From sequence record OR753409.1: a DNA stretch of 49,578 nt; one strand, written 5' to 3'. This DNA is from Enterobacter phage vB_EclS_AS5. Positions 1-49,578 of this stretch are shown one piece after another. Positions within the stretch are counted from its first letter, which is position 1; each line of letters opens with the position of its first letter. The notes beneath the pieces are model-generated. The model ran no database searches, was not told the DNA's origin, and saw nothing but the letters and a program-made list of their open reading frames with translations. The position numbers were made by a program, and so were the translations under genes.

Positions 1-610
1 GCTGCACAAGGCACGCAGCCAGTTTGTTAAAGTCAAAAAAGATCGCCAAAACACACATCTTAAAAACAAATACGCAACGCTTGATAGCGTGCTTGATGCA
101 ATCACGCCAGCATTGACGGAAAATAAATTAATGATCATGCAGGACGGCGAGCGCATCGAAAACACAATGCGCGTCGAAACCACCGTGATACATATTTCCG
201 GTCAGTGGGCGAAATTTTATTTTGATATCCCAATAGCCAAAAACGATCCGCAAGGAGTAGGATCTGCATTCACATACGGGCGACGCTATGCACTGGCTGC
301 GGCGTTCGGACTAAGCCAGGCAGACGACGACGCGCAAATTGCTGTGAAGTCTGCGCAGGATTGGAAGCGAGATCTCGACAAGTGCGAGACTGTAGACGAC
401 TTGCAAGGCGTGTTGCGTGATGCGTGGAAGTCAAGCGACAAAGCGAACCAGGTGATCATTAAAGAGCACTACGAGAAGCGCAAAGCAGAGATTGAGATCG
501 GAAGCGCTCGCGGTTTTAGCGCCGCCGCTCCAAAGCAAAACCTTGCCACTAAGGTTGACGAGCCGCAAAAGCAAGCTGTAGAATCACAGCCAATCACCAG
601 TTTTGAATAA
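1..610 (+). CDS. erf: Erf-family single-strand annealing protein, C-terminal part. The frame is open from nt 2 and continues the ORF that starts at 49541 across the window ends.
   Basis: Frame 2 is open from nt 2 to the stop at 608-610. Motifs [11 protein letters not shown] and [18 protein letters not shown] resemble P22 Erf. Joining 49541..49578 to nt 1 gives the in-frame peptide MKLSENFDEILPSLHKARSQ... Confidence 0.75.
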
Positions 611-1105: not shown

Positions 1106-2254
1106 TTATTCAAAGTCCTCTGGGAATTTGAAAGCAAGATATGCCTCAAGCTTTTTAACCCGATCCTCAAGGCTCTTTCTCTTAGCCTTTTCATCCTTAA
1201 ATGCGGCGTGCATGTAACCTAACAGCCCCATGTAGTCAACCTGCAATGATCCGTCAGCATCGTTTGATGAAACAAGTTGAGGCATCCAGTTTTGCAACTC
1301 TTGCGCGATAACTCCAGCCGTGTAGCGACTACCATCCTTGTATCGGTAAGAGTACGTGCCAACCTTATCAAGAAGATCACTAACAAACTCGCCGTCAAGC
1401 TCAGTAACATCAGCTTTCTTATCGAAATCACATGTTAGCGTTACGCCCTTACTAATAACCAATCCCAATGTGTTGATATTTCCATCACGCGTATTAATCA
1501 AAACTGCTGGCTTACCCTGCTTAATACCGTTCGTTGGTGATGTATAAGCAGTGCAAAACGCAACGCCATACCATGAGTAAAGGTTAATGTTTGATGCGTT
1601 ATCAAAGTTGTTGGTATCAGTGCCAGCATGAATTCCGCGCAAACCAGCGCCAATAGGTGCCGTTGCATCAGCAGATGCGGGAACCTGAATACTTCCTCCA
1701 GCAAGCTTAAACTCGCCATAAGTTATCGCAGGGCAACGGATGTTGAAATCAGTAGTTTCAATGTTAATTCGACCACCAGTAAATGAGTATGACCCCTTTG
1801 TGTCCATGTTGATGTAACCAGCATAAAAGCGCAAGTTTCCACCACCAACCTGATCTGAGTTGTACCCGTCACATACTATTCTTGCGTCGTAGTCATACTT
1901 AGCTCCATAATGAAAGTCAACGTAAGCAGCCGAGTCTTTGTTTGATTTACCTAATTCAAGAGATCTAAATTCTGGGGTTGAGCTAACACCAAGGCCGATG
2001 TTTTCACGAGCACCAGCCGCATCCTTTGCACCAGTACCGCCCTGGTCAATCTTCAATGCAACATATTGAAAGTCTTTTTCATTGTAGCATCCCCACACAC
2101 CGCTTTGATGAACCATGAGAGCATATTTATCATCACCAACTTGCGGAGATAGAATAAGAGTTCGATCAGCGCCTTGAATATGCTTATCAACCTGTAGATT
2201 ACCCCTTGCGGTTGCCTTATTTGCAACGTCTGACAGGTTATTAGCTTTCTTCAA
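1106..2254 (-). CDS. Tail fibre, C-terminal segment, with distal domain and C-terminal intramolecular-chaperone (peptidase S74-like) domain. The same frame is open upstream to about 2737, but no ATG lies in that stretch.
   Basis: The C-terminal YSYRYKDGSRYTAGVIAQELQ...VDYMGLLGYM...LEDRVKKLE resembles the auto-cleaving chaperone of endosialidase-type tail fibres. The upstream frame reads as Ala/Ser/Thr-rich linker repeats. Confidence 0.7.
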   Translation of the reverse strand: MKKANNLSDVANKATARGNLQVDKHIQGADRTLILSPQVGDDKYALMVHQSGVWGCYNEKDFQYVALKIDQGGTGAKDAAGARENIGLGVSSTPEFRSLELGKSNKDSAAYVDFHYGAKYDYDARIVCDGYNSDQVGGGNLRFYAGYINMDTKGSYSFTGGRINIETTDFNIRCPAITYGEFKLAGGSIQVPASADATAPIGAGLRGIHAGTDTNNFDNASNINLYSWYGVAFCTAYTSPTNGIKQGKPAVLINTRDGNINTLGLVISKGVTLTCDFDKKADVTELDGEFVSDLLDKVGTYSYRYKDGSRYTAGVIAQELQNWMPQLVSSNDADGSLQVDYMGLLGYMHAAFKDEKAKRKSLEDRVKKLEAYLAFKFPEDFE

Positions 2255-2649
2255 CTGGTTATCAGGGTTTGCAGTTTGTGCGCGGTCTGCTTCCGCTTTT
2301 GCGCGATCCGCTTGCTGCGTTGCCGTGGTAGCCGATGCCGCCGCAGCGCTCTTTGATGCGTTTGCGCTTGATGCAGCTGTCTGAGCCTCGTTCTTTGCTG
2401 TATTTGCCGCGCTTGCACTGCTTGCTGCGTTTGTCTCGCTTGATTTTGCGTTTGTCTCGCTTGTTTTCGCAGCGCTTGCTGATGATGCCGCCGCCGTCTT
2501 GCTTGCACTTGCGTTTGTCTCGCTTGTTTTCGCAGCGCTGGCGCTAGCAGACGCAGCATCCTTATGCTGGCTTGCGGTTGTCGCTGAGCTTGCCGCCGCG
2601 CTAGCAGAGTTAGCCGCCGCCGTCTTGCTCGATGCCGCGTTGTTCTCGC

Positions 2650-3258
2650 TTACCTTTGCTGCGCTTGCTGATGATGCCGCCGCGCTTGCTTGCTGGCTTG
2701 CAGTTGTTGCTGATGCAGCCGCCGCATTCTTGCTTGAGCGCTTGCTGATGATGCCGCCGCGCTTGCTTGCTGGCTTGCAGTTGTTGCTGATGCAGCCGCC
2801 GCATTCTTGCTTGAGTTTGCATTGCTTTCGCTTTGCGCAGCCGCCCTTGCGCTAGCGTCAGCAGCCGCAGCGTTAGCCTCCGTGTTGCGATCAATTTCTT
2901 CAAGTTTTTGCCAATCAAAGCCTTTCAGGAATTCAACAAACTCCTGATACATTGTTTCCTGCCCCTGGTAGTAACGCAGAGTTTCAGCAACGTCTTGCGC
3001 CAGGCCGTCAACGGTGATCGAATCATGAAGCAGAATCACATAGTCGCCGCGAGGCACTACAGCGCCGCCAGTAGACGTGGCACGCAGCGAGGTATCATTC
3101 ACGATCTCGCTAATTGTTGCGTATGCAACCGGATTGGATGCAAACACGATTGTTGCACCTGGACGAATCAGCGTTAATGCTGTTTTCCACTTTGTGCCGT
3201 AACCAGTGATATAGCCGTCAGCGTCCATTGACGCTTGACCAGTGCGATAAATAGCCAT
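2650..3258 (-). CDS. Tail fibre, N-terminal segment. It ends prematurely after reading through the duplicated 77-bp unit.
   Basis: ATG at 3258 (MAIYRTGQASMDADGYITGYG...) preceded by the RBS gggag. The product ends ...SSKNAAAASATTASQQASAAASSASA and then reads out-of-frame QR-rich sequence before the stop at 2650. Confidence 0.65.
   Translation of the reverse strand: MAIYRTGQASMDADGYITGYGTKWKTALTLIRPGATIVFASNPVAYATISEIVNDTSLRATSTGGAVVPRGDYVILLHDSITVDGLAQDVAETLRYYQGQETMYQEFVEFLKGFDWQKLEEIDRNTEANAAAADASARAAAQSESNANSSKNAAAASATTASQQASAAASSASAQARMRRLHQQQLQASKQARRHHQQAQQR
2662..2815. repeat. Perfect 77-bp tandem duplication (2662-2738 and 2739-2815) inside the tail-fibre Ala/Ser-rich linker.
   Basis: Two identical copies of cgcttgctgatgatgccgccgcgcttgcttgctggcttgcagttgttgctgatgcagccgccgcattcttgcttgag. 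Because 77 is not a multiple of 3, the pair causes a frameshift. Imperfect in-frame repeats lie nearby at 2400-2560. Confidence 0.9.
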
Positions 3259-9070: not shown

Positions 9071-9308
9071 GCAAGGCCGAGAGGCCGTTTGGAATCACGC
9101 AAAAGAAACCGGAATGGCAGACGATATAGCACGAATTGCCAAAATCTTTGATCTGGCTGATGTTAGTATTATCAGCGACGGGAAAATGACTTACTTGCAC
9201 GAGAGGCCGCGCAAAATGCATCGCGTGCCAGCAATCCCGACAAAAATTGACTTCAAAGAAGCAATGGCAAAAATCAGAGAGCCTAAAAAGTATTACAAAG
9301 GAGAATAG
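9060..9308 (+). CDS. Hypothetical protein of 83 aa.
   Basis: ATG at 9060 (MKVEQGREAV...) after ggagggaaaaa. It overlaps the preceding ORF end. Confidence 0.5.
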   Translation: MKVEQGREAVWNHAKETGMADDIARIAKIFDLADVSIISDGKMTYLHERPRKMHRVPAIPTKIDFKEAMAKIREPKKYYKGE

Positions 9309-9402
9309 TCATCATGTGGAGCTTGCTTGTTCTTCCAATGCCCGTTATCATTGCCGCCGTTGTTATGTACGCACTTGTTATGTGATTTAAGAGGAAAAAT
9401 TA

Positions 9403-10521
9403 ATGATTCAGAAAATGACAGACCAGCAGTTTAAAGACGCACGAGCGGAGGGTAAAACCTACAAGCAGATCGCGGATGAGTTCGGTTTGAATGTTCGCAC
9501 CGTTGAGCGACGCGCGGCACGCCTTGCTCGCCAGGGTGAGACTGACACGAAAGGAGCACCAGGTTTTGCGGTTGTTCGTGAGTCAGTCCTGACCCGCGCA
9601 AACGGAGAAGAAGTGATGCGCTGGACTATCACCAACAAAGATAAAGAGCAGTTGGAAGCACTCATGCAAGCCGCGATGGATGCATTTGCTGAGGAAGTGC
9701 CGCGCCTTGAGCCTCAGCCGGAAAGCCGAAATGACTACAGCGAAAGCCTGGCTCTATACCCTATCTTTGACATGCACATTGGCGCAATGGCTCACAAGCA
9801 TGAATGTGGTGAGAATTGGGATACTGCAACAGCCGAGAAAGTCATGAATGACTTCTTTGATTATGCGGTTGAGTGTGCGCCAAATAGCGAGAAAGCCGTG
9901 CTCCTGATTGGTGGTGATATGCTTCACAGTGACGGCCTGGAGGCTGTAACACCTGCCAGCGGTCACGTTCTGGATCAGGATAGCCGCTACGCTAAACTTG
10001 TTTATGTCGCAATCCGAGCAACTCGCCGCGCTATCTCATTGATGTTAACCAAGCACAAAGAGGTTGAAATTCAGGTGATCGAGGGCAATCATGACCAATC
10101 AGGCATGATCTGGCTACGCGCAGCAATGGCTGCGGCATACGAGGACGAGCCGCGCGTGATGGTTGATGTTTCTCCCCGCGTTGTGCATCACACGCAGTAC
10201 GGAAAAACCTTCCTCGCTTATCATCACGGTCACACCGTGCGCAAGCCGGAAACGTTATTGATGATGTGCGCGGCAGATTGGCGCGAGGATTTTGGCAAAT
10301 CAAAATCAATGTATGCTCATGTAGGCCATTGGCATCACCAGACCGTAACAGAAACCAGCCTTGGGATTGTTGAAGTTCATAGCACTATGGCGGCTAAAGA
10401 TGCATATGCGGCTCGCGGTGGTTGGCGCTCTCGTCGTCGCGCTGCGGTTATCATCTACGATAAAGAGCACGGAGAGATCGGGCGCTTTATGTTCTACCCT
10501 GAAATGATGGAGTCAAAATAA
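9403..10521 (+). CDS. Fusion protein: an N-terminal HTH (sigma70 region-4/LuxR-like) joined to a calcineurin-like metallophosphoesterase.
   Basis: N-terminus TYKQIADEFGLNVRTVERRAARLARQ. Phosphoesterase motifs LLIGGDMLHSD and VIEGNHDQ, plus His-rich HHGH and HWHH. Confidence 0.65.
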   Translation: MIQKMTDQQFKDARAEGKTYKQIADEFGLNVRTVERRAARLARQGETDTKGAPGFAVVRESVLTRANGEEVMRWTITNKDKEQLEALMQAAMDAFAEEVPRLEPQPESRNDYSESLALYPIFDMHIGAMAHKHECGENWDTATAEKVMNDFFDYAVECAPNSEKAVLLIGGDMLHSDGLEAVTPASGHVLDQDSRYAKLVYVAIRATRRAISLMLTKHKEVEIQVIEGNHDQSGMIWLRAAMAAAYEDEPRVMVDVSPRVVHHTQYGKTFLAYHHGHTVRKPETLLMMCAADWREDFGKSKSMYAHVGHWHHQTVTETSLGIVEVHSTMAAKDAYAARGGWRSRRRAAVIIYDKEHGEIGRFMFYPEMMESK

Positions 10522-19532: not shown

Positions 19533-19712
19533 ATGGATAAGGTTATGATGATGAGCGAAATAAAAGCAGGAATGATGGTTAAGTTCGGTGGAGTCTATCG
19601 CTTGGTTCTGAATAACTGCCGCAAGGAGAACATCCTTACTATCCGCGTGAGAGGCAAGGCTCAACTCATCGCACCTGCTGGAGATATAGAGCTTGAGGTA
19701 AGAATCAAATAG
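19533..19712 (+). CDS. Small hypothetical protein of 59 aa.
   Basis: ATG after gggtttagc. The stop TAG is embedded in the next cassette core. Confidence 0.45.
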   Translation: MDKVMMMSEIKAGMMVKFGGVYRLVLNNCRKENILTIRVRGKAQLIAPAGDIELEVRIK

Positions 19713-19758
19713 CACGAATTGCTAAAAACTGGATCGGGTGTGCTGGTATAGTACACCC
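19708..19758 (+). promoter_or_regulatory. Regulatory cassette (class A): core, 22 bp, then TATAGT flanked by GGGTGT/ACACCC.
   Basis: Core 19708-19727, -10 at 19747-19752, IR arms at 19736-19741 and 19753-19758. Confidence 0.6.
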
Positions 19759-19783
19759 ATACCAAACAACTGAGGAATTAACA

Positions 19784-19951
19784 ATGAAATCTCGCAAATA
19801 CCGCAACATCTTCAACAACCTGGCGTACTGGCTGGAGGACGGCGCTGTCATGGTTAGCAACGGCGAGCAAACAAAGAAATCGCTGTTAAGCGCAGAGGAG
19901 TTTTTCATTGCGGTCGCTCGTGACATTCTGGTACTGATCGAGGAGGAATAA
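19784..19951 (+). CDS. Small hypothetical protein of 55 aa.
   Basis: RBS gaggaattaacaATG. Confidence 0.45.
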   Translation: MKSRKYRNIFNNLAYWLEDGAVMVSNGEQTKKSLLSAEEFFIAVARDILVLIEEE

Positions 19952-20197: not shown

Positions 20198-20733
20198 TGA
20201 TCAAATTTGAGCTTTGGGGTCACACATACCACTTGCGCGGCACTTATGGTGTCGTCATTGTAGACCTGGACGGCACGCTATCGGACGGCACGCACCGCTT
20301 GCACATGATGCCAACAAAAGACCTGCACCTCACTGAAAGCTGGAGCGAGTTTAACAGGGCGGCGCAGAATGACGCGCCAATCCAGGACACGATTGATACT
20401 GTTAACATGCTTTGGAAAGCTGGAATGGGCGTGGTTATCCTGACTGGTCGATCTGATGAGGTGGAAACAGAAACCATCCTTTGGCTAGATCGCCACAAAG
20501 TCAAATATGACTGGCTTATCATGCGCCGCGCCGATGACAACCGCAAGGACACCGTTATCAAAGAGGAGGTATTGCGCACAATCGGCTTGCATCATATTAC
20601 GTGCGCCTTTGATGATTCGCCAAGTGTGATCAAGCACTTCCGCAGCCTGGGGATCACAACCTATCAGGTGACGGAATACGACAAGCCGCACGCTCATTTA
20701 CAGAGTCACGGCGTGGACAAGCTGGATGGATAA
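20197..20733 (+). CDS. HAD-superfamily phosphatase, resembling a Pnk-type 3'-phosphatase or a nucleotidase.
   Basis: Motif I VIVDLDGTL, motif II VILTGR and motif IV AFDDSP. Confidence 0.65.
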   Translation: MIKFELWGHTYHLRGTYGVVIVDLDGTLSDGTHRLHMMPTKDLHLTESWSEFNRAAQNDAPIQDTIDTVNMLWKAGMGVVILTGRSDEVETETILWLDRHKVKYDWLIMRRADDNRKDTVIKEEVLRTIGLHHITCAFDDSPSVIKHFRSLGITTYQVTEYDKPHAHLQSHGVDKLDG

Positions 20734-20938
20734 GATCGTAACTTTTATTTTCGGGGCGGTTATCTCCGCCCTATCAATCCTGCTGGTGTTTATTCTCTGC
20801 GCTGGCATATACATGACGACGAGCGACGATTACACCTGTGAGAAAACAGGTCGCCAGGTTCTCGTGATGTTGCCAGCCGGAAAGGTAATGGTTCCTGTCA
20901 TGCAGGAAGAAACTATTTGCAAGAGGGTAGAGAAATGA
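20726..20938 (+). CDS. Small membrane protein of 70 aa.
   Basis: TMD IFGAVISALSILLVFILCAGIYM. Confidence 0.5.
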   Translation: MDKIVTFIFGAVISALSILLVFILCAGIYMTTSDDYTCEKTGRQVLVMLPAGKVMVPVMQEETICKRVEK

Positions 20939-21872: not shown

Positions 21873-22103
21873 ATGATTGAGATCAAATTCAAAGGCAACA
21901 CCAAGCGATTCAACGGCGCACCAATCCACAAGGACGCAACGCACGCGGTAGCTGGTCGCAATTTCGGCACTTACTTTAAGCTCAACGGCGAATGGTATTT
22001 CACTGTTTTCCCTGGTTACGCTCTTAAATGCATGGTTGCAGATCAGGATTTTGATATCCGCAAACACATCAAAGACGACGCGGAAATCACAGAGCTTAAA
22101 TAG
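21873..22103 (+). CDS. Hypothetical protein of 76 aa.
   Basis: RBS aaaggagtaacaagATG. The stop TAG lies in the cassette core. Confidence 0.55.
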   Translation: MIEIKFKGNTKRFNGAPIHKDATHAVAGRNFGTYFKLNGEWYFTVFPGYALKCMVADQDFDIRKHIKDDAEITELK

Positions 22104-22150
22104 CACTTTTTGCTAAAGACTTTCCGCGAGGCCATTGTTATAGTGGCCTC
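22099..22150 (+). promoter_or_regulatory. Regulatory cassette (class A): core, then TATAGT flanked by GAGGCCA/TGGCCTC.
   Basis: Core 22099-22118, -10 at 22139-22144, IR arms at 22128-22134 and 22144-22150. Confidence 0.55.
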
Positions 22151-22182
22151 ATTGAAAGCAACCACGCAAACAGGAGATAAAA

Positions 22183-22337
22183 ATGCGTAACTTTGAGAAA
22201 ATCCGCACTAACAAAGACCGCCGCGCTGCTGGTGAGATTGTAGATTCACACCGTCGCCGCAAGAAAACACAAAAGCGCGGGAGTGCGGCAAAGCGCATGA
22301 ATTGGGATCGGCTTCAAACTAACTACAGGGCGAAATA
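22183..22337 (+). CDS. Small, very basic protein of 51 aa.
   Basis: RBS caggagataaaaATG. Rich in K/R (RRRKKTQKRGSAAKR). Confidence 0.45.
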
Positions 22338-22526
22338 ATGTTTACAATGCGTGACCACAGCGAATTGCAGGACAAAACGGCGGAATACCTCCGACAACTT
22401 GCAGACGACATAGAGAGCGGTAAAGTGTGCGTTGACCGCATGACCATCGAATCATCAATCGAATGGTTCAAGATCGAGAAGCGCGAAATCATAATCAACA
22501 CTCAAGAGGTGAAAGACGATGAATAA
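22338..22526 (+). CDS. Hypothetical protein of 62 aa.
   Basis: Starts at the upstream stop as TAATG. Confidence 0.5.
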   Translation: MFTMRDHSELQDKTAEYLRQLADDIESGKVCVDRMTIESSIEWFKIEKREIIINTQEVKDDE

Positions 22527-23091
22527 AAAGGTTATCATCCTCAATGCTCCGCCAGGTGCTGGCAAGGACACAATCGGTGGCCTGATCTGCAAGCACGCGC
22601 CACAATACGTTGTTAAGCGCTCATTCAAAGAGCCGATGTTTAAGATCGCAAAGGCAATGTTGGGTGATTATCGTTTCGGCCTGTTTATGCAATCCTATGA
22701 CGACAGGGAGAGAAAAGAAAAAGCGCAATCTTTCCTGAATGGTAAATCACCTCGCCAGTTTATGATCTGGATTAGCGAGGACGTGATAAAACCTCAGTTT
22801 GGGAATCAGTATTTTGGTACGGTAATGGCTGAGGCGGTGCGAGATAGCCAGGTTCCGGTTGTCATTACTGACGGCGGTTTTCCTGATGAAGTTAAGCCAC
22901 TGGTCAGCGCTGGGGTTCAGGTAAACATTTGCCGACTGCACCGCACAGGATATGCTTTTGATGGTGACAGCCGCGATTATCTAAACCTGGATGGCTACCA
23001 TCACCGCATTGTTACGCGAGATTACATTCTTGTCCATGGTGATCCAATGCACACTGTAGACCAGATTTGCGAGGATATACTAAGTGATTAG
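22519..23091 (+). CDS. P-loop kinase, dNMP-kinase-like.
   Basis: Walker A NAPPGAGKDT resembles the T4 gp1 GxxGSGKDT motif. A second region is VVITDGGFPDE. Confidence 0.55.
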   Translation: MNKKVIILNAPPGAGKDTIGGLICKHAPQYVVKRSFKEPMFKIAKAMLGDYRFGLFMQSYDDRERKEKAQSFLNGKSPRQFMIWISEDVIKPQFGNQYFGTVMAEAVRDSQVPVVITDGGFPDEVKPLVSAGVQVNICRLHRTGYAFDGDSRDYLNLDGYHHRIVTRDYILVHGDPMHTVDQICEDILSD

Positions 23092-23187
23092 CACACCGAA
23101 CGATCCAAAAGAGCCATTTGACTTCCACAAGGCCGCCGTTATCGGCCTTACAATCCTGACCATCTTTTACACTGTGCGAGGTGTTTT

Positions 23188-23385
23188 ATGGCTGTTAACA
23201 CACTAAAGCGAATCGGCGTTATCATGCTAATTATCGGAGGGTCATTGCTAACAGAACCAGGTTTTGCAAACACGGTTGGAAGTATGGCGCTGTTAATTGG
23301 CGGTCTTATTGGCGGCTACATGGACGGCGTAAAGGCTGGGCGGCGTGAGGCGTTCGGCGGCGAAGATAAAAATCCGATCAAATAG
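23188..23385 (+). CDS. Small membrane protein of 65 aa.
   Basis: Two hydrophobic segments. The stop TAG lies in the cassette core. Confidence 0.5.
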   Translation: MAVNTLKRIGVIMLIIGGSLLTEPGFANTVGSMALLIGGLIGGYMDGVKAGRREAFGGEDKNPIK

Positions 23386-23431
23386 CACGAATTGCTAAAA
23401 CAGGTTAAAGGGCTTGCGGTATAGTAAGCCC
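23381..23431 (+). promoter_or_regulatory. Regulatory cassette (class A): core, 22 bp, then TATAGT flanked by GGGCTT/AAGCCC.
   Basis: Core 23381-23400, -10 at 23420-23425, IR arms at 23410-23415 and 23426-23431. Confidence 0.6.
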
Positions 23432-23458
23432 ATACCAAACAAACAGGAGGAAAACGAA

Positions 23459-23677
23459 ATGAAATTCTCTATCTACCGCGCAATCGACATCACTGATGGT
23501 CATGACTCACTTTTCCTTGTTCGTGAGGATAGCAAAGAGGCAATATGTATTTTTTATTTTGCCGACTACCAGATTGACCACCTGAGAGATTGCGCCAAGA
23601 ATTACGAGAATGAATTGTGGTTCTCAAGCGAGAGCCTTATGCGAGAGCAAACACTGATTGAAGTTATTGAGATTTGA
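23459..23677 (+). CDS. Hypothetical protein of 72 aa, paralogous to the product of 21453..21680.
   Basis: RBS caggaggaaaacgaaATG. N-terminus MKFSIYRAIDITDGHDSLF. Confidence 0.55.
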   Translation: MKFSIYRAIDITDGHDSLFLVREDSKEAICIFYFADYQIDHLRDCAKNYENELWFSSESLMREQTLIEVIEI

Positions 23678-23725
23678 CATCACGAATTGCTAAAACTTCC
23701 GCTAGGGCATTTGATATAGTGCCCT
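23678..23725 (+). promoter_or_regulatory. Regulatory cassette with a degenerate core (catcacgaatTGCTAAAA), 22 bp, then TATAGT flanked by AGGGCA/TGCCCT.
   Basis: -10 at 23715-23720, IR arms at 23704-23709 and 23720-23725. Confidence 0.5.
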
Positions 23726-23761
23726 CATTGAAGTAAAGCAACCAATCAAGGAGATAACGAA

Positions 23762-24040
23762 ATGGCTACTATCCGCAAACACCTGGTAAACGCATTCGAG
23801 AACGTTGGCGAGCGCTACGGCTGGGATGATGGACTGAAAACACCTTATACGGCACGCCGCCAGGGTTTCAAATCACTGCGCGAGTGGGCGCGTTGCATGG
23901 CGGCTAACTACATGCCGGAGAACTGGCAACTCATGCCTGACTCGCTGCGCGAAATGATCGAAGAAGCACAGGCGGCAGGTGTGCCACTAACTCAGCATGA
24001 TTTTGACGACTACGCAGAGGAAGAAATTTTATGCTGGTAA
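23762..24040 (+). CDS. Hypothetical protein of 92 aa.
   Basis: RBS caaggagataacgaaATG. Confidence 0.55.
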   Translation: MATIRKHLVNAFENVGERYGWDDGLKTPYTARRQGFKSLREWARCMAANYMPENWQLMPDSLREMIEEAQAAGVPLTQHDFDDYAEEEILCW

Positions 24041-43304: not shown

Positions 43305-43363
43305 TTGGTTGCTATAATGCAACATCAAAACAGCACAAATTGTTAAAACTGGAGGCCAAAACT

Positions 43364-46300
43364 ATGATAAGCGGCAATAAGGGCGGCTCCTCTAAGCCGT
43401 ATACGCCAAAGGAGATGGAGGATAACCTAATCTCCATCAACAAAATCAAGATCCTCCTGGCGGTTTCAGACGGAGAGGTAGACGGCGAGTTTTCGCTAAA
43501 AAATCTCTACCTTGACGACGTGCCAGTGCAAAACGCAGACGGCTCGCTTAACTATAGCGGTGTTAGTGCTGAGTTCCGGCCAGGCACTCAAACGCAGGAC
43601 TACATCAAGGGATTTTCAGACACGTCAAGCGAAGTAACAATTCAGCGAGATCTGGCGCAGAATAACCCTTACAGCATTGCGGTAACAAACAAATCACTAT
43701 CTGCTATCAGGATCAAAATCCTGATGCCTCAGGGATACAAGCAGGAGGGTAACGGCGATCTGGTTGGTGTATCAGTGCAATACGCGGTTGATATGGCTGT
43801 AGACGGAGGCTCATTCAAGCGAGTTCTGACTGATACGATCACTGGTAAGACAAAAAGCGGCTACGACCGCAGCCAGCGAATCGACCTGCCAGCATTCAAC
43901 GAGCAGGTAATTTTGCGCGTTAGCCGAATCACGCCGGACTCTAACACAGGCCGAGTTGTTGACGCGATCAGATTGCAGAGCTATGCGGAGGTTGTTGATG
44001 CAAAATTCCGTTACCCTCTGACTGGTCTTGTTTATGTTGAGTTTGATAGCGAGCTTTTCCCGACTCAGCTACCGAACATTTCTATCAAGAAGAAATGGAA
44101 GCTGATCAAGGTTCCTGTTAACTACGATCCAGATTCGCGCACCTATAGCGGATCATGGAATGGTTTATTCAAGACTGCGTGGAGCAATAACCCTGCCTGG
44201 GTTCTGTATGACCTGATCACCAATCAGCGCTACGGACTCGACCAAAGGGAGCTTGGTATTGAGATTGACAAGTGGAGCATCTACGAGGCAGCGCAGTATT
44301 GCGATCAGATGGTTCCAGATGGCAAGGGCGGTTTAGAGCCTCGCTATCTTTGTGATGTGGTTATCCAGAGCCAGATTGAGGCGTTTAACCTTATCCGCGA
44401 TATTTGCTCAATCTTCCGTGGTATGAGCTTTTGGAACGGCGAGAGCCTTTCTATCGTGGTGGATAAGCCGCGCGATCCGTCTTACATTTTCAGTAATGAC
44501 AACGTGGTAAACGGCGATTTTCAGTACACATTTGCTAGCGAGAAAAGCATGTATACGCAGTGCAACGTGACTTTCGACGACGAGCAAAACATGTACAGCC
44601 AGGATATTGAGGGCGTTTTCGACACTGAGGCCGCTTTGCGTTTTGGTCACAATCCGACAAGTATCACAGCAATCGGATGCACACGACGCAGCGAGGCGAA
44701 CCGACGAGGGCGCTGGATTCTCAAGACTAACCTGCGCAGCACTACGGTAAACTTTGCAACAGGTCTTGAGGGTATGATCCCGACAATCGGAGACGTGATC
44801 GCAATCGCGGATAACTTCTGGTCAAGTAACTTGACGCTGAATCTTTCGGGGCGCGTCATGGAGGTTTCAGGGCTGCAAGTTTTCCTCCCGTTCCGAGTTG
44901 ATGCGCGGCCTGGTGATTTTATCCTGATAAACAAGCCGGACGGAAAGCCAGTTAAGCGCACTATCTCACGAGTTAGCGCAGACGGGAAAACTATTGAGTT
45001 AAACGTTGGCTTTGGTTTCGACGTTAAGCCGGACACGGTTTTCGCAATCGACAGGACTGATCTTGCGTTGCAGCAGTACGTTGTTACCGGAATAACAAGG
45101 GGCGACGATACGGAGCAATTCACGTACTCAATAACGGCGGTCGAATACGATCCAAACAAGTACGACGAGATTGATTACGGAGTGAACATTGACGACAGGC
45201 CAACAAGCATTGTAAACCCTGGAGTGATGAAAGCGCCGGAAAACGTCAAGATTTCATCATACTCTCGAATTGTTCAGGGGCAGAGCGTTGAAACGATGGT
45301 TGTAAGCTGGGGTAAGGTCGAATACGCAAGCCTGTATGAAGTTCAATGGCGCAAAGACAATGGCAACTGGCTAAACGTGCCTCAGACGGCAAACAAAGAG
45401 GTTGAGGTAGAGGGTATTTACTCAGGCAACTACTTTGTTAGGGTTCGATCAGTATCCGCTTCTGGAAGCACATCGCCTTGGTCTGGCGTTGTTTCCGCCG
45501 CATTAACTGGCAAGGTTGGCGAGCCTAAAATGCCTATTAACTTGACCGCCTCAGATAATGAGATATTTGGGATCCGCGTCAAGTGGGGTATGCCGGAGGG
45601 TGCTGGCGATACTGCTTACATAGAGCTACAGCAAGCGCCTGATGTTGACAGTCACCCAAGCGAGGAAAACGCAACGCTGTTAACGCTCGTTCCTTATCCT
45701 CAAATGGAGTATTGGCACGCCACGCTGAATCCAGGCTATATCAACTGGTATCGAGTGCGAAGCGTTGACAAGATCGGAAACGTGTCTGCATGGACTGAAT
45801 TTGTGCGCGGTATGTCGTCAACTAACGTTGATGATATTTTAGGCGACATTCTTGATGATATCCTGTATTCAGAAGGATTCGAGGAGTTCAAGGAGAATGC
45901 GGTTGATACTGCAAACAAGGTTAAAGATCAGGCGCAAAGTGTGATCCAGAATGCGCTAGCAATCGACACTAACCTACGATGGAACCGAGTAGAGAATGGG
46001 AAACGCAAGGCGGAGCACGGACAGGCGCTTGAGCTTATCGCAAACGAAACTGAGGCTCGTATTGAAGCCGTTGACATTCTGAGAACTGAGTTCGACGAGG
46101 GGATCTCCTCTAACATTACAGAAGTCAAGAAACTGATTTCTAACGAGGCGGAAACGCGAGCGAGCCAAGTTCAGCAGTTGGACGCTACATTCACGAAAAA
46201 AGTTTCTGACGTTAACGGCAGGGTTGACGATGTTTCGCAAGAGATCGTTAAGACAAACGCCAACGTTAGCAGCGCTCAACAGGCGATAGCAAACGAGACT

Positions 46301-47302
46301 GAGGCAAGGACTCAAGCGGTTAGCTCTCTTGACTCCAAGTTTACAGGGCAGATCAATGGCGTTAAGCAGGATTTATCATCAAACGTCACGAGGCTGGATC
46401 AGTCTATCGCGAACGAGACTCAAGCGAGAGCCAGTGCTGACACTGCGTTGTCAACTCGTGTTGGTAAAACGGAATCGGCAATTACTCAGAAGCTTGACTC
46501 TTGGGTAGACAACGGATCTATAGGTGCTCAGTACGTTCTCAAGCTTGGGATTAAGCGTGCTGGTGTTGAGTACACGGCTGGAGTTTCGCTATCGCTAATC
46601 CAATCAGGCAGTGAGATCAAGTCTCAATTCCTGGTTGATGCGGCTCGTTTCGGTGTTATGGTCAAGCAGGGAGGCAGCTACATTCTCCCGTTCGTGGTTG
46701 AAGGAACGCAAGTTATCATGAATAGCGCTCTAATCAAGAACGGCATGATTACTAATGCCATGATTGGTAATGAGATCAAATCTGATAACTTTGTTTCCGG
46801 CTCCGCTGGCTGGCGAATCCTCAAGAGTGGCGCGGCTGAGTTCAGTAACGCGACATTCCGAGGAACGGTTTACGCGACAAACGGATCGTTCAAGGGTACA
46901 GTTGAGGCTACGAGATTTGTTGGAGACATTGCGAACATAGGTGTTGGCGCTGATGCAACCGCCAAAGGATCAGAAAACGCGACAAGGACTATCACATACA
47001 CTGATAGTGTTGGTACTTCAACTCCTAGGTCTGCTGTGCTTGAGGCGATTGTATACGCTTCTACGAGCTTCCAGACTGCGTTTCAGGTTACTTTTGTGAT
47101 TAACGGAAACAGCAGGAGTTTTAAGTTTAAACTTTCTCAGGGAGAGGATCGTTGGATTACTTTGCGGCATGCCGTTGCTGGGATCACATCTCAGAAGGTA
47201 ACTGCTAGTATAACAATGGTCGGCGCTGGCACTGTGTCAAAGTCTATCAGATCGCCAACGTTAACAATTACTCGCGGAACTGGCTCATTCACCTCCTCAT
47301 AA
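43364..47302 (+). CDS. Tail tip / host specificity protein J-like (central tail fibre).
   Basis: 1312 aa. The N-terminal J-like region includes FN3-like stretches (YEVQWRKDNGNW...). ATG at 43364 after ggagg. Confidence 0.85.
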   Translation: MISGNKGGSSKPYTPKEMEDNLISINKIKILLAVSDGEVDGEFSLKNLYLDDVPVQNADGSLNYSGVSAEFRPGTQTQDYIKGFSDTSSEVTIQRDLAQNNPYSIAVTNKSLSAIRIKILMPQGYKQEGNGDLVGVSVQYAVDMAVDGGSFKRVLTDTITGKTKSGYDRSQRIDLPAFNEQVILRVSRITPDSNTGRVVDAIRLQSYAEVVDAKFRYPLTGLVYVEFDSELFPTQLPNISIKKKWKLIKVPVNYDPDSRTYSGSWNGLFKTAWSNNPAWVLYDLITNQRYGLDQRELGIEIDKWSIYEAAQYCDQMVPDGKGGLEPRYLCDVVIQSQIEAFNLIRDICSIFRGMSFWNGESLSIVVDKPRDPSYIFSNDNVVNGDFQYTFASEKSMYTQCNVTFDDEQNMYSQDIEGVFDTEAALRFGHNPTSITAIGCTRRSEANRRGRWILKTNLRSTTVNFATGLEGMIPTIGDVIAIADNFWSSNLTLNLSGRVMEVSGLQVFLPFRVDARPGDFILINKPDGKPVKRTISRVSADGKTIELNVGFGFDVKPDTVFAIDRTDLALQQYVVTGITRGDDTEQFTYSITAVEYDPNKYDEIDYGVNIDDRPTSIVNPGVMKAPENVKISSYSRIVQGQSVETMVVSWGKVEYASLYEVQWRKDNGNWLNVPQTANKEVEVEGIYSGNYFVRVRSVSASGSTSPWSGVVSAALTGKVGEPKMPINLTASDNEIFGIRVKWGMPEGAGDTAYIELQQAPDVDSHPSEENATLLTLVPYPQMEYWHATLNPGYINWYRVRSVDKIGNVSAWTEFVRGMSSTNVDDILGDILDDILYSEGFEEFKENAVDTANKVKDQAQSVIQNALAIDTNLRWNRVENGKRKAEHGQALELIANETEARIEAVDILRTEFDEGISSNITEVKKLISNEAETRASQVQQLDATFTKKVSDVNGRVDDVSQEIVKTNANVSSAQQAIANETEARTQAVSSLDSKFTGQINGVKQDLSSNVTRLDQSIANETQARASADTALSTRVGKTESAITQKLDSWVDNGSIGAQYVLKLGIKRAGVEYTAGVSLSLIQSGSEIKSQFLVDAARFGVMVKQGGSYILPFVVEGTQVIMNSALIKNGMITNAMIGNEIKSDNFVSGSAGWRILKSGAAEFSNATFRGTVYATNGSFKGTVEATRFVGDIANIGVGADATAKGSENATRTITYTDSVGTSTPRSAVLEAIVYASTSFQTAFQVTFVINGNSRSFKFKLSQGEDRWITLRHAVAGITSQKVTASITMVGAGTVSKSIRSPTLTITRGTGSFTSS

Positions 47303-47332: not shown

Positions 47333-47569
47333 TTAGTCTTTCAAGCAGTTATTGCCAGGTCGCTGATACTTGACATCCAATTCAGAGCACCACTGCCCCG
47401 TCATTGGTAGCTTTTCGGTATCTTCAATTAAGTGACCGTCTCCATCACGCTTAACCTCTTTCGGGATTACTCCGCTGTTAGGTTTTCCGGTGTCAACGCC
47501 GCTACCACACCCGACAACAGCCATTGACATAAAGGTAGCCAGAGCGATTGCAAAAAGTTTCATTTTCAT
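47333..47569 (-). CDS. Small lipoprotein of 78 aa, a candidate Cor-like superinfection-exclusion protein.
   Basis: MKMKLFAIALATFMSMAVVGC has a lipobox. ATG at 47569 with RBS aaggagat. Its location downstream of J on the opposite strand matches cor in T1/phi80-like phages. Confidence 0.45.
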   Translation of the reverse strand: MKMKLFAIALATFMSMAVVGCGSGVDTGKPNSGVIPKEVKRDGDGHLIEDTEKLPMTGQWCSELDVKYQRPGNNCLKD

Positions 47570-47639
47570 AGCGTTATCTCCTTTGTGTATTGTGTGCGCA
47601 TAAATGATACCCCCACACGCTAAGACGTGCAACAACAAA

Positions 47640-49501: not shown

Positions 49502-49540
49502 TAAATTACGGCGGCGAAAGCCGCCTTTAAGGAGAAAGTA

Positions 49541-49578
49541 ATGAAGTTATCAGAAAATTTCGACGAGATTTTGCCATC
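49541..49578 (+). CDS. erf: Erf N-terminus, truncated at the 3' window end. It continues in frame at position 1.
   Basis: A hairpin GGCGGC..GCCGCC and RBS aaggag precede the ATG. MKLSENFDEILP parallels the P22 Erf N-terminus, and the remainder (tc) joins g at nt 1 in frame. Confidence 0.6.
   Translation, partial: MKLSENFDEILP

What the first reader, a model, noticed from the sequence alone, without database searches (positions are those of the whole stretch)
1106..3258. Tail-fibre gene split by a perfect 77-bp tandem duplication in its Ala/Ser-rich linker
Copies at 2662-2738 and 2739-2815 are identical. Because 77 is 2 modulo 3, the N-terminal frame from the ATG at 3258 reads ...SSKNAAAASATTASQQASAAASSASA through the first-encountered copy, then slips into a Q/R-rich nonsense frame and stops at 2650. 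The C-terminal fibre frame (distal domain plus S74-type intramolecular chaperone, 1106-2254) is open upstream to about 2737 but contains no ATG there. Deleting one 77-bp copy fuses the two into a single tail-fibre ORF of about 690 aa. This is either a genuine frameshift or pseudogene, a slipped-strand ON/OFF switch for fibre expression, or an assembly artefact in a repeat-rich region. A further possibility is that the fibre is made by programmed ribosomal slippage within the repeat.
Basis: seen in the sequence. Interest (0 to 1): 0.7.

Follow-up and report, generated by a model that had tools for sequence, protein, structure and literature searches.

The report
Assembly overlap falsely splits tail-fibre gene
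The perfect 77-base duplication that breaks this phage's side tail-fibre gene is almost certainly a leftover assembler overlap (SPAdes, k = 77) that ended up inside the genome record when it was re-started to match a reference. It is a database error, not biology.

Summary
Window 2661-2815 holds a perfect 77-bp tandem duplication, and it frameshifts a lateral tail-fibre gene. Removing one copy gives a 691-aa ORF that matches intact single-ORF homologues.

The window is the GenBank genome of Enterobacter phage vB_EclS_AS5. Its first base matches base 1 of its closest reference, Henu7, and its erf gene runs across the record ends. So the contig was re-originated after assembly.

The isolating laboratory describes the same pipeline in its other phage papers: MiniSeq 2x150 reads, SPAdes, then manual curation against a reference. 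SPAdes is documented to leave identical 77-bp contig ends.

I scanned five other genomes from that laboratory. Three carry one perfect 77-bp tandem duplication, one of which splits the essential portal gene. A fourth carries a perfect 125-bp one. Two of these records become identical at all 43,369 bases once one copy of each duplication is removed.

Within the fibre gene:
- Offset 77 shows no homology. The natural repeat period is a multiple of 21 nt.
- No homologue has the segment twice (0 of 120).
- The overlap has no slippery site.

Verdict: not a real feature (about 95%). No AS5 reads were available, so a genuine recent duplication remains a small residual possibility.

The parts
2661..2815 (.). 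Perfect tandem duplication. Two 77-bp copies (2662-2738 and 2739-2815) plus one chance base of extra identity. One copy is the surplus contig-end overlap.
   Evidence: The DNA alignment with three relatives shows a clean +77 insertion in the window only.
1106..3258 (-). Lateral tail-fibre gene as it stands in the record, interrupted. With one 77-bp copy removed it is a single 691-aa ORF. Its parts are an N-terminal virion-attachment domain, an Ala/Ser-rich repeat shaft, a distal domain and a C-terminal S74 chaperone.
   Evidence: repaired ORF; colinear with P0001, and 172 of the first 174 residues are identical; the gene sits between ssb and the primase gene, as in Henu7 and IsaakIselin. PHROG tail-fibre families.
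2653..3258 (-). N-terminal fragment as deposited (WZK92980.1, 'hypothetical protein', 202 aa). It has 174 native residues followed by 28 out-of-frame residues.
1109..2116 (-). C-terminal fragment as deposited (WZK92978.1, 'tail fiber protein', 336 aa, starting at an internal ATG).
1271..1429 (-). Peptidase_S74 intramolecular chaperone domain (residues 585-637 of the repaired protein). The residue at the usual Ser nucleophile position is Cys584 (codon 1430-1432).
   Evidence: Pfam. Cys at this position in 9 of 120 homologues.
2290..2880 (-). Ala/Ser-rich repeat region of the fibre shaft. Its natural periodicity is a multiple of 21 nt, so natural length changes stay in frame.
   Evidence: Self-identity peaks at offsets 126, 63, 84 and 42. 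Offset 77 scores 0.215 against a mean of 0.286.
1..610 (+). The 3' part of the erf recombinase gene. The first 38 nt of the gene are at 49541-49578. The gene therefore runs across the record ends, which shows the record is a re-originated circular permutation. Base 1 matches base 1 of Henu7.
49541..49578 (+). The 5' end of the erf gene (ATG at 49541), continued at window position 1.
   Evidence: The joined 648 nt translate to 215 aa, the length of ERF in relatives.

Best explanation
The second 77-bp copy does not exist in the phage. My reconstruction is as follows.

1. The genome of Enterobacter phage vB_EclS_AS5 was assembled from 2x150-nt Illumina reads with SPAdes. Its largest default k for such reads is 77.
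2. For a circularly permuted genome, SPAdes emits a contig whose first and last k bases are identical.
3. The contig happened to break inside the tail-fibre gene.
4. During manual curation the contig was re-started at the base matching position 1 of the closest reference, Henu7. The old ends were joined without removing one copy of the overlap.
5. That turned the terminal overlap into an internal perfect 77-bp tandem duplication. Because 77 = 3x25+2, the gene appears frameshifted.

The real gene is a single 691-aa lateral tail fibre with a C-terminal S74 chaperone.

Shown here: the duplication, the re-origination of the record, and the same artefact in sister records from the same laboratory. 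Inferred: that AS5 itself went through that pipeline, and that its reads contain only one copy.
For: 1. **Source.** The window is vB_EclS_AS5, 49,578 bp.
2. **The record was re-originated.** Its base 1 aligns with base 1 of Henu7, which is an arbitrary point inside the erf gene. The 215-aa erf ORF is completed only by joining window 49541-49578 to 1-610.
3. **The length is exactly 77.** PMC9409062 states that SPAdes with default settings leaves identical 77-bp sequences at each contig end for circularly permuted phage genomes. PMC5923482 calls the corresponding 127-bp overlaps artefacts that must be removed.
4. **The laboratory's pipeline fits.** PMC11942677 cites the AS5/AS6 description as Gonzalez-Gomez et al., Virology 2024. 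[quoted passage not shown]
5. **Four of five other genomes from that laboratory carry one perfect tandem duplication.**
   - vB_VpaP_M3: 77 bp at 20372-20525. It splits the essential portal gene into two CDS, and removing one copy restores a 510-aa portal.
   - vB_VpaP_M9: 77 bp at 19686-19839.
   - vB_VpaS_ALK: 77 bp at 9252-9405.
   - vB_VpaP_C2: 125 bp at 20654-20903.
   - Henu7, from another laboratory, has none.
6. **M3 and C2 are the same genome.** After one copy of each duplication is removed, both are 43,369 nt. After rotation they are identical at every base. The duplications therefore belong to the records, not to the phage.
7. **No biological route to 77 nt is visible.** The two breakpoints share 12 of 50 positions. 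Offset 77 has below-average self-identity (0.215 against 0.286). The shaft repeats predict in-frame slips such as 84 nt, which matches 37 of 60 positions locally, against 10 of 60 at offset 77.
8. **The rest of the genome is clean.** Of the 60 Henu7 proteins that have a match in the window, only the fibre changes frame.
9. **All homologues are single ORFs.** Among 120 homologues, 62 have the segment once and none has it twice.
10. **The downstream frame is undamaged.** It stays open from 2851 to its stop at 1106 and is conserved against P0001 (dN/dS 0.28 for residues 321-691).
Against: - No AS5 reads or independent assembly could be examined. The junction 30-mer has no match in the viral, metagenome or genome contig collections. 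AS5 gene positions are not in the gene-position index.
- The AS5 paper (Virology 2024;595:110100) is not held. Its assembler and read length are inferred from the same group's other papers.
- One sister record has a 125-bp duplication, which is not a SPAdes default k. Another (M83) has no perfect duplication. The pipeline is therefore not uniform.
- Lateral tail fibres are thought to be dispensable on some hosts (PMC8594841). A real null allele would therefore be viable.
Confidence: 0.95

Rival explanations
1. The duplication is genuine and recent. An illegitimate 77-bp tandem duplication knocked out the lateral tail fibre, and the phage tolerates it because the fibre is not needed on the propagation host. 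This would resemble the stf frameshift of laboratory lambda.
For: - Drexlerviridae lateral fibres are proposed to bind O-antigen as a non-essential primary receptor (PMC8594841).
- The shaft region varies in length among homologues, so it is recombination-prone.
- The two copies are identical and the downstream frame is intact. That fits a very recent event as well as it fits an artefact.
Against: - The length equals the assembler's k exactly, and the breakpoints share only 1 nt of microhomology.
- The natural slippage register of the repeats is a multiple of 21 nt, not 77.
- The same perfect 77-bp duplication occurs at unrelated places in three other genomes from the same laboratory, one of them in an essential portal gene.
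- Two records that are otherwise identical differ only by such duplications.
- The AS5 record was demonstrably cut and re-joined.
Confidence: 0.04
2. The duplication is a reversible ON/OFF switch. It would be gained and lost by slipped-strand mispairing or by phage Erf-mediated annealing, giving mixed populations with and without lateral fibres.
For: - A 77-bp perfect tandem repeat would delete readily. This rests on my own knowledge of tandem-repeat instability.
- The phage encodes an ERF recombinase and a RecE-like exonuclease.
Against: This reading needs the duplication to be real in the first place, and the evidence against that is given under the first rival. In addition:
- None of 120 homologues has two copies, and none has any exact tandem block of 12 aa or more.
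- There is no homology at offset 77 that would regenerate the duplication. The ON-to-OFF direction therefore has no mechanism.
Confidence: 0.007
3. The full-length fibre is made from the two-copy sequence by a programmed -1 ribosomal frameshift, or by transcriptional slippage, within the repeat.
For: - The C-terminal frame is -1 relative to the N-terminal frame.
- Both frames are open over 2851-2653, so a -1 shift there would give a full-length protein.
Against: - The overlap has no X_XXY_YYZ heptamer in the N-terminal frame and no XXXYYY in any frame.
- It has no homopolymer run of 4 or more.
- Every relative encodes the fibre as one ORF with no frameshift.
Confidence: 0.003

Closest known systems
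SPAdes (de Bruijn) k-length terminal overlap on contigs of circular or circularly permuted genomes
   Same: - The copies are perfectly identical.
- The length equals the largest default k for 150-nt reads, 77. [quoted passage not shown] PMC5923482 reports the equivalent 127-bp artificial overlaps.
- The breakpoints share no homology.
- The duplication occurs once per genome.
   Different: The overlap is normally seen at the two ends of a contig. Here it is internal and tandem, because the record was re-started on a reference without trimming. As a result it looks like a frameshifting mutation in a gene.
Sister GenBank records from the same laboratory: Vibrio phages vB_VpaP_M3, vB_VpaP_M9, vB_VpaS_ALK (77 bp) and vB_VpaP_C2 (125 bp)
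   Same: - Each has a single perfect tandem duplication of odd length at an arbitrary internal position.
- In M3 and M9 the duplication splits genes in the annotation.
- The papers describing them report the same sequencing and assembly pipeline.
   Different: - The phages, genes and positions differ.
- C2 has 125 bp rather than 77 bp.
- M83 has no perfect duplication. It has a different anomaly instead.
Lateral tail fibres of Henuseptimavirus and other Drexlerviridae (Henu7 gp3, IsaakIselin bas10_0031)
   Same: - The locus lies between ssb and the primase gene.
- The N-terminal roughly 145 residues are nearly identical.
- The shaft is Ala/Ser-rich.
- The C-terminus carries a Peptidase_S74 chaperone.
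   Different: The distal receptor-binding part is mosaic. It is closest to the metagenomic protein P0001 rather than to Henu7. The S74 nucleophile position is Cys, not Ser.
The side tail-fibre (stf) frameshift of laboratory lambda (Hendrix and Duda 1992; cited from my own knowledge)
   Same: If the duplication were real, the outcome would be the same: a frameshift that inactivates a dispensable side fibre in a cultured siphovirus.
   Different: The lambda lesion is a real single-base change confirmed by comparison with Ur-lambda. Here the lesion has the signature of an assembler overlap.

Membership tests
Untrimmed assembler (k-mer) overlap artefact | The two copies are 100% identical and directly adjacent. 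| tested here: met
Untrimmed assembler (k-mer) overlap artefact | The length equals the assembler's largest k (77 for SPAdes with 150-nt reads). | tested here: met
   The unit is exactly 77 bp. The 77-bp SPAdes end overlap is documented in PMC9409062. The 2x150 plus SPAdes pipeline is documented for this laboratory's other phages, not for AS5 itself.
Untrimmed assembler (k-mer) overlap artefact | The record was cut and re-joined after assembly, so terminal copies can become internal. | tested here: met
   Window base 1 matches Henu7 base 1, and the erf gene spans the record ends.
Untrimmed assembler (k-mer) overlap artefact | The same signature recurs in other records made by the same pipeline, at unrelated positions. 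| tested here: met
   Four of five sister genomes carry one. M3 and C2 are identical once the duplications are removed.
Untrimmed assembler (k-mer) overlap artefact | Reads do not support the copy-to-copy junction. | not testable with these tools
   No reads are available, and no independent assembly was found.
Drexlerviridae lateral tail fibre with S74 intramolecular chaperone | Conserved N-terminal attachment domain, and a position between ssb and the primase gene. | tested here: met
Drexlerviridae lateral tail fibre with S74 intramolecular chaperone | A C-terminal Peptidase_S74 domain scoring above the Pfam cut-off. | tested here: met
   PF13884, 32.6 bits against a cut-off of 22.
Drexlerviridae lateral tail fibre with S74 intramolecular chaperone | A Ser-Lys catalytic dyad at the autocleavage site. 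| tested here: inconclusive
   The Lys is present, but the nucleophile position is Cys584 (..TLTCDFDKK..). Cys also occurs in 9 of 120 homologues. Activity was not tested.
Programmed -1 ribosomal frameshift | A slippery heptamer in the zone where the two frames overlap. | tested here: not met
   None found.
Programmed -1 ribosomal frameshift | The two-frame arrangement is conserved in relatives. | tested here: not met
   All relatives have one ORF.
Slipped-strand phase-variable locus | Repeat copy number varies among related genomes. | tested here: not met
   Among 120 homologues, 62 have the segment once and none has it twice.
Slipped-strand phase-variable locus | Homology in the register that would generate the repeat. 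| tested here: not met
   Offset 77 is below background, and the natural register is a multiple of 21 nt.

The most novel reading that the evidence does not exclude
The 77-bp duplication is physically present in at least part of the AS5 population. It would then act as an unstable, revertible null allele of the lateral tail fibre, and deletion of one copy by the phage's own Erf/exonuclease system would turn fibre production back on. That would be a phase-variation-like host-range switch in a virulent siphovirus.
Probability: 0.01. Interest if true: 0.6.

Novelty: not a real feature. Interest (0 to 1): 0.06.

Why it matters
There is no new biology here. The practical value is in data quality.
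- The AS5 GenBank record mis-annotates one 691-aa receptor-binding fibre as a 'hypothetical protein' plus a truncated 'tail fiber protein'.
- At least four other records from the same pipeline carry the same kind of surplus overlap, and one of them splits a portal gene.
- Such artefacts can be mistaken for pseudogenes, phase switches or programmed frameshifts. They also add false truncated proteins to protein databases.
- A simple screen would catch them: a perfect internal tandem duplication of odd length equal to a common k (55, 77, 99, 127) in a genome that was re-originated.

Tried and rejected
- **Programmed -1 frameshift or transcriptional slippage.** The overlap has no slippery heptamer, no XXXYYY and no run of 4 or more. 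Rejected.
- **Independent start for the C-terminal part.** There is no ATG, GTG or TTG in frame between 2851 and 2254. The candidates at 2254 and 2116 have no visible Shine-Dalgarno sequence. Rejected as a natural two-gene fibre.
- **Homology-driven slippage within the Ala/Ser repeats.** The periodicity is a multiple of 21 nt, and offset 77 is below background. Rejected as the origin.
- **Decay of the downstream part as a sign of a long-standing pseudogene.** The frame is intact and conserved. This does not discriminate between an artefact and a recent event.
- **Ser-to-Cys at the S74 nucleophile as a sign of decay.** The same Cys occurs in 9 of 120 homologues across three sequence subtypes. 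Rejected.
- **Search for an independent assembly.**
  - The junction 30-mer has no match in the viral, metagenome or genome contig collections.
  - A conserved 34-mer found only Henu7.
  - AS5 proteins are absent from the gene-position index.
  - The repaired 691-aa protein is not in the 15-billion-protein collection.
- **Literature.** The AS5 paper is not held, and a name search found nothing.

Full report
**1.

- Tandem Repeats Finder reports a period-77, two-copy, 100%-identical array at window 2661-2815.
- A direct comparison confirms that 2662-2738 equals 2739-2815. Period-77 identity extends over 155 nt, which is 2x77 plus one chance base.
- On the minus strand, the frame from ATG 3258 reads the first copy correctly (...SSKNAAAASATTASQQASAAASSASA). 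It changes frame in the second copy and stops at TAA 2652-2650, giving 202 aa.
- The downstream fibre frame is -1 relative to the upstream frame. It is open from 2851 and has no ATG, GTG or TTG before 2254.
- Deleting one copy gives a single 691-aa ORF with a Pfam Peptidase_S74 domain at residues 585-637 and PHROG tail-fibre matches.

**2. What the gene is**

The window is a complete Henuseptimavirus genome (Drexlerviridae, Tempevirinae), about 94% identical to Escherichia phage Henu7.

- In Henu7 and IsaakIselin, the gene between ssb and the primase gene is one ORF annotated as a tail fibre or lateral tail fibre, 611 and 666 aa.
- A search of 5.8 billion proteins found 507 homologues. All of those inspected are single ORFs of about 550-1060 aa.
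- The repaired protein is colinear with the best hit, P0001. Over the first 174 residues, 172 are identical.
- A DNA alignment with three relatives shows a clean +77 insertion in the window and nothing else.
- Among the 120 best homologues, 62 contain the duplicated segment once, 58 lack it and none has it twice. None contains any exact tandem block of 12 aa or more.

**3. Biological mechanisms tested**

- *Frameshifting.* A -1 shift anywhere in 2851-2653 would restore the protein. That stretch has no X_XXY_YYZ heptamer, no XXXYYY in any frame, and no homopolymer of 4 or more.
- *Slippage.* The Ala/Ser-rich shaft does have internal repeats, but their period is a multiple of 21 nt. Self-identity peaks at offsets 126, 63, 84 and 42.
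  - Offset 77 scores 0.215 against a mean of 0.286.
  - The two breakpoints share 12 of 50 positions.
  - Locally, offset 84 matches 37 of 60 positions while offset 77 matches 10 of 60.
  - Homology-driven slippage here would therefore give in-frame changes, not a 77-nt one.
- *Decay.* The downstream frame is intact from 2851 to its stop at 1106 and is conserved against P0001. Any real event would have to be very recent.
- *Overall sequence quality.* Of the 60 Henu7 proteins that have a match in the window, only the fibre changes frame.

**4. The artefact hypothesis and its tests**

The number 77 is the largest default k of SPAdes for 150-nt reads (my own knowledge). [quoted passage not shown] PMC5923482 treats the corresponding 127-bp overlaps as artefacts. 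If such a contig is re-started at another position without trimming, the two end copies become an internal perfect tandem duplication.

*Test A: was the record re-started?* Yes.
- Window base 1 aligns with base 1 of Henu7. That is an arbitrary point inside the erf recombinase gene.
- The 215-aa erf ORF is complete only when window 49541-49578 is joined to 1-610.

*Test B: who made the record, and how?*
- An exact-sequence look-up identifies the window as Enterobacter phage vB_EclS_AS5, 49,578 bp. The two fibre pieces are deposited as WZK92980.1 ('hypothetical protein', 202 aa) and WZK92978.1 ('tail fiber protein', 336 aa).
- PMC11942677 uses phages AS5 and AS6, isolated on E. cloacae ATCC 13047, and cites Gonzalez-Gomez et al., Virology 2024;595:110100 for them. 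That paper is not held.
- Three other phage-genome papers from the same group, from 2022 and 2025, describe MiniSeq 2x150, fastp and SPAdes 3.12-3.15.5. [quoted passage not shown]

*Test C: do other records from this pipeline show the same signature?* I fetched five and scanned each for perfect tandem duplications.

| Record | Perfect tandem duplication | Effect or note |
|---|---|---|
| vB_VpaP_M3 (ON457557) | 77 bp at 20372-20525 | Splits the essential portal gene into two annotated CDS. Removing one copy restores a 510-aa portal. |
| vB_VpaP_M9 (ON457555) | 77 bp at 19686-19839 | A gene upstream of the portal gene is annotated in two pieces. Only 15000-43268 was scanned. |
| vB_VpaS_ALK (ON457558) | 77 bp at 9252-9405 | None noted |
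| vB_VpaP_C2 (ON457556) | 125 bp at 20654-20903 | Lies over the start of the capsid gene. The portal gene is intact. |
| vB_VpaP_M83 (ON457554) | None | Has a 300-nt, 97% repeat in the capsid gene instead. |
| Henu7 (another laboratory, control) | None | None |

*Test D: are these duplications part of the phage or part of the record?* Remove one copy from M3 and one from C2. Both become 43,369 nt, and after rotation they are identical at every base. Two depositions of the same genome therefore differ only in where the record starts and in where, and how long, the perfect duplication is. This is what untrimmed contig-end overlaps produce. Real mutations would not show this pattern.

**5. Conclusion**

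The 77-bp duplication in the AS5 tail-fibre gene has every testable property of an untrimmed SPAdes overlap carried inside by re-origination.
- The copies are perfectly identical and the length is exactly k.
- The breakpoints share no homology.
- The record was demonstrably re-joined.
- The same signature recurs across the laboratory's other records, once in an essential gene.

I put the artefact at about 95%. The one missing piece is direct read-level evidence for AS5 itself. A genuine recent duplication (about 4%) would be viable, because lateral fibres are thought to be dispensable on some hosts (PMC8594841). A reversible switch or a programmed frameshift has essentially no support. The true gene is a 691-aa lateral tail fibre, and the true genome length would be 49,501 bp.

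**6. Comparison with known things, and novelty**

The underlying gene is an ordinary member of the Drexlerviridae lateral tail-fibre family. It has a conserved N-terminus, a mosaic distal part and an S74 chaperone. The 'split' is not a real feature. Its value is as a curation flag for this record and at least four sister records, and as a screening rule for similar false pseudogenes.

Noticed in passing
L007 (ON457557) 20372-20525; L012 (ON457555) record 19686-19839; L010 (ON457558) 9252-9405; L008 (ON457556) 20654-20903: Four other GenBank phage genomes from the same laboratory each carry one perfect internal tandem duplication. Three are 77 bp and one is 125 bp. In M3 it splits the portal gene into two annotated CDS. 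M3 and C2 are the same 43,369-bp genome once the duplications are removed.
   Followed up: yes
L008 (ON457556) 20654-20903: The C2 duplication is 125 bp. It is odd, as a de Bruijn k must be, but it is not a SPAdes default value. I do not know which assembler setting produced it.
   Followed up: no
L009 (ON457554) 22076-23046: vB_VpaP_M83 has the major capsid gene annotated twice (22118..22819 and 22789..23793). A 300-nt direct repeat at 97% identity, 671 nt apart, underlies this. It is a different kind of probable mis-assembly.
   Followed up: partly
L006 (Henu7 MN019128) record ends, compared with window 49507-49578: The Henu7 record lacks about 70 nt at its own circular junction. The missing stretch includes the ribosome-binding site and the first 38 nt of erf. 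Its 'gp1 hypothetical protein' (131..610) is therefore a truncated ERF recombinase. The AS5 record carries the complete 215-aa gene across its ends.
   Followed up: partly
window 1430-1432 (-), Cys584 of the repaired fibre: The residue at the usual Ser nucleophile of the S74 self-cleaving chaperone is Cys (..TLTCDFDKK..). Cys also occurs in 9 of 120 homologues, in three sequence contexts (GVTLTCD, QRVANCD, SRSPNCD). It therefore looks like a recurrent natural variant. Whether it still cleaves is unknown.
   Followed up: partly
window 2290-2880 (-); exact 31-mer at 2446 and 2509: The Ala/Ser-rich fibre shaft is built of imperfect repeats of 21 nt (7 aa). Homologues differ by whole blocks here; for example, IsaakIselin and P0068 lack most of it. 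The shaft length evidently varies through in-frame recombination.
   Followed up: partly
window 43340-47302 (+) and 47333-47638 (-): The central tail fibre (gpJ-like) ORF spans 1320 codons, against 1178 aa in Henu7. Henu7 gp63-65 downstream have no match here. A 101-aa ORF with a lipoprotein-type signal (..AVVGCGS..) lies on the opposite strand. This suggests a different terminal-receptor module and a possible superinfection-exclusion lipoprotein.
   Followed up: no
window about 2251-2918 (-): The GenBank protein numbering (WZK92978 for the C-terminal piece, WZK92980 for the N-terminal piece) implies that one more CDS, WZK92979, was called between them. It is presumably a spurious out-of-frame ORF in the repeat region, such as 2251..2559 or 2610..2918. 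I could not check this.
   Followed up: no
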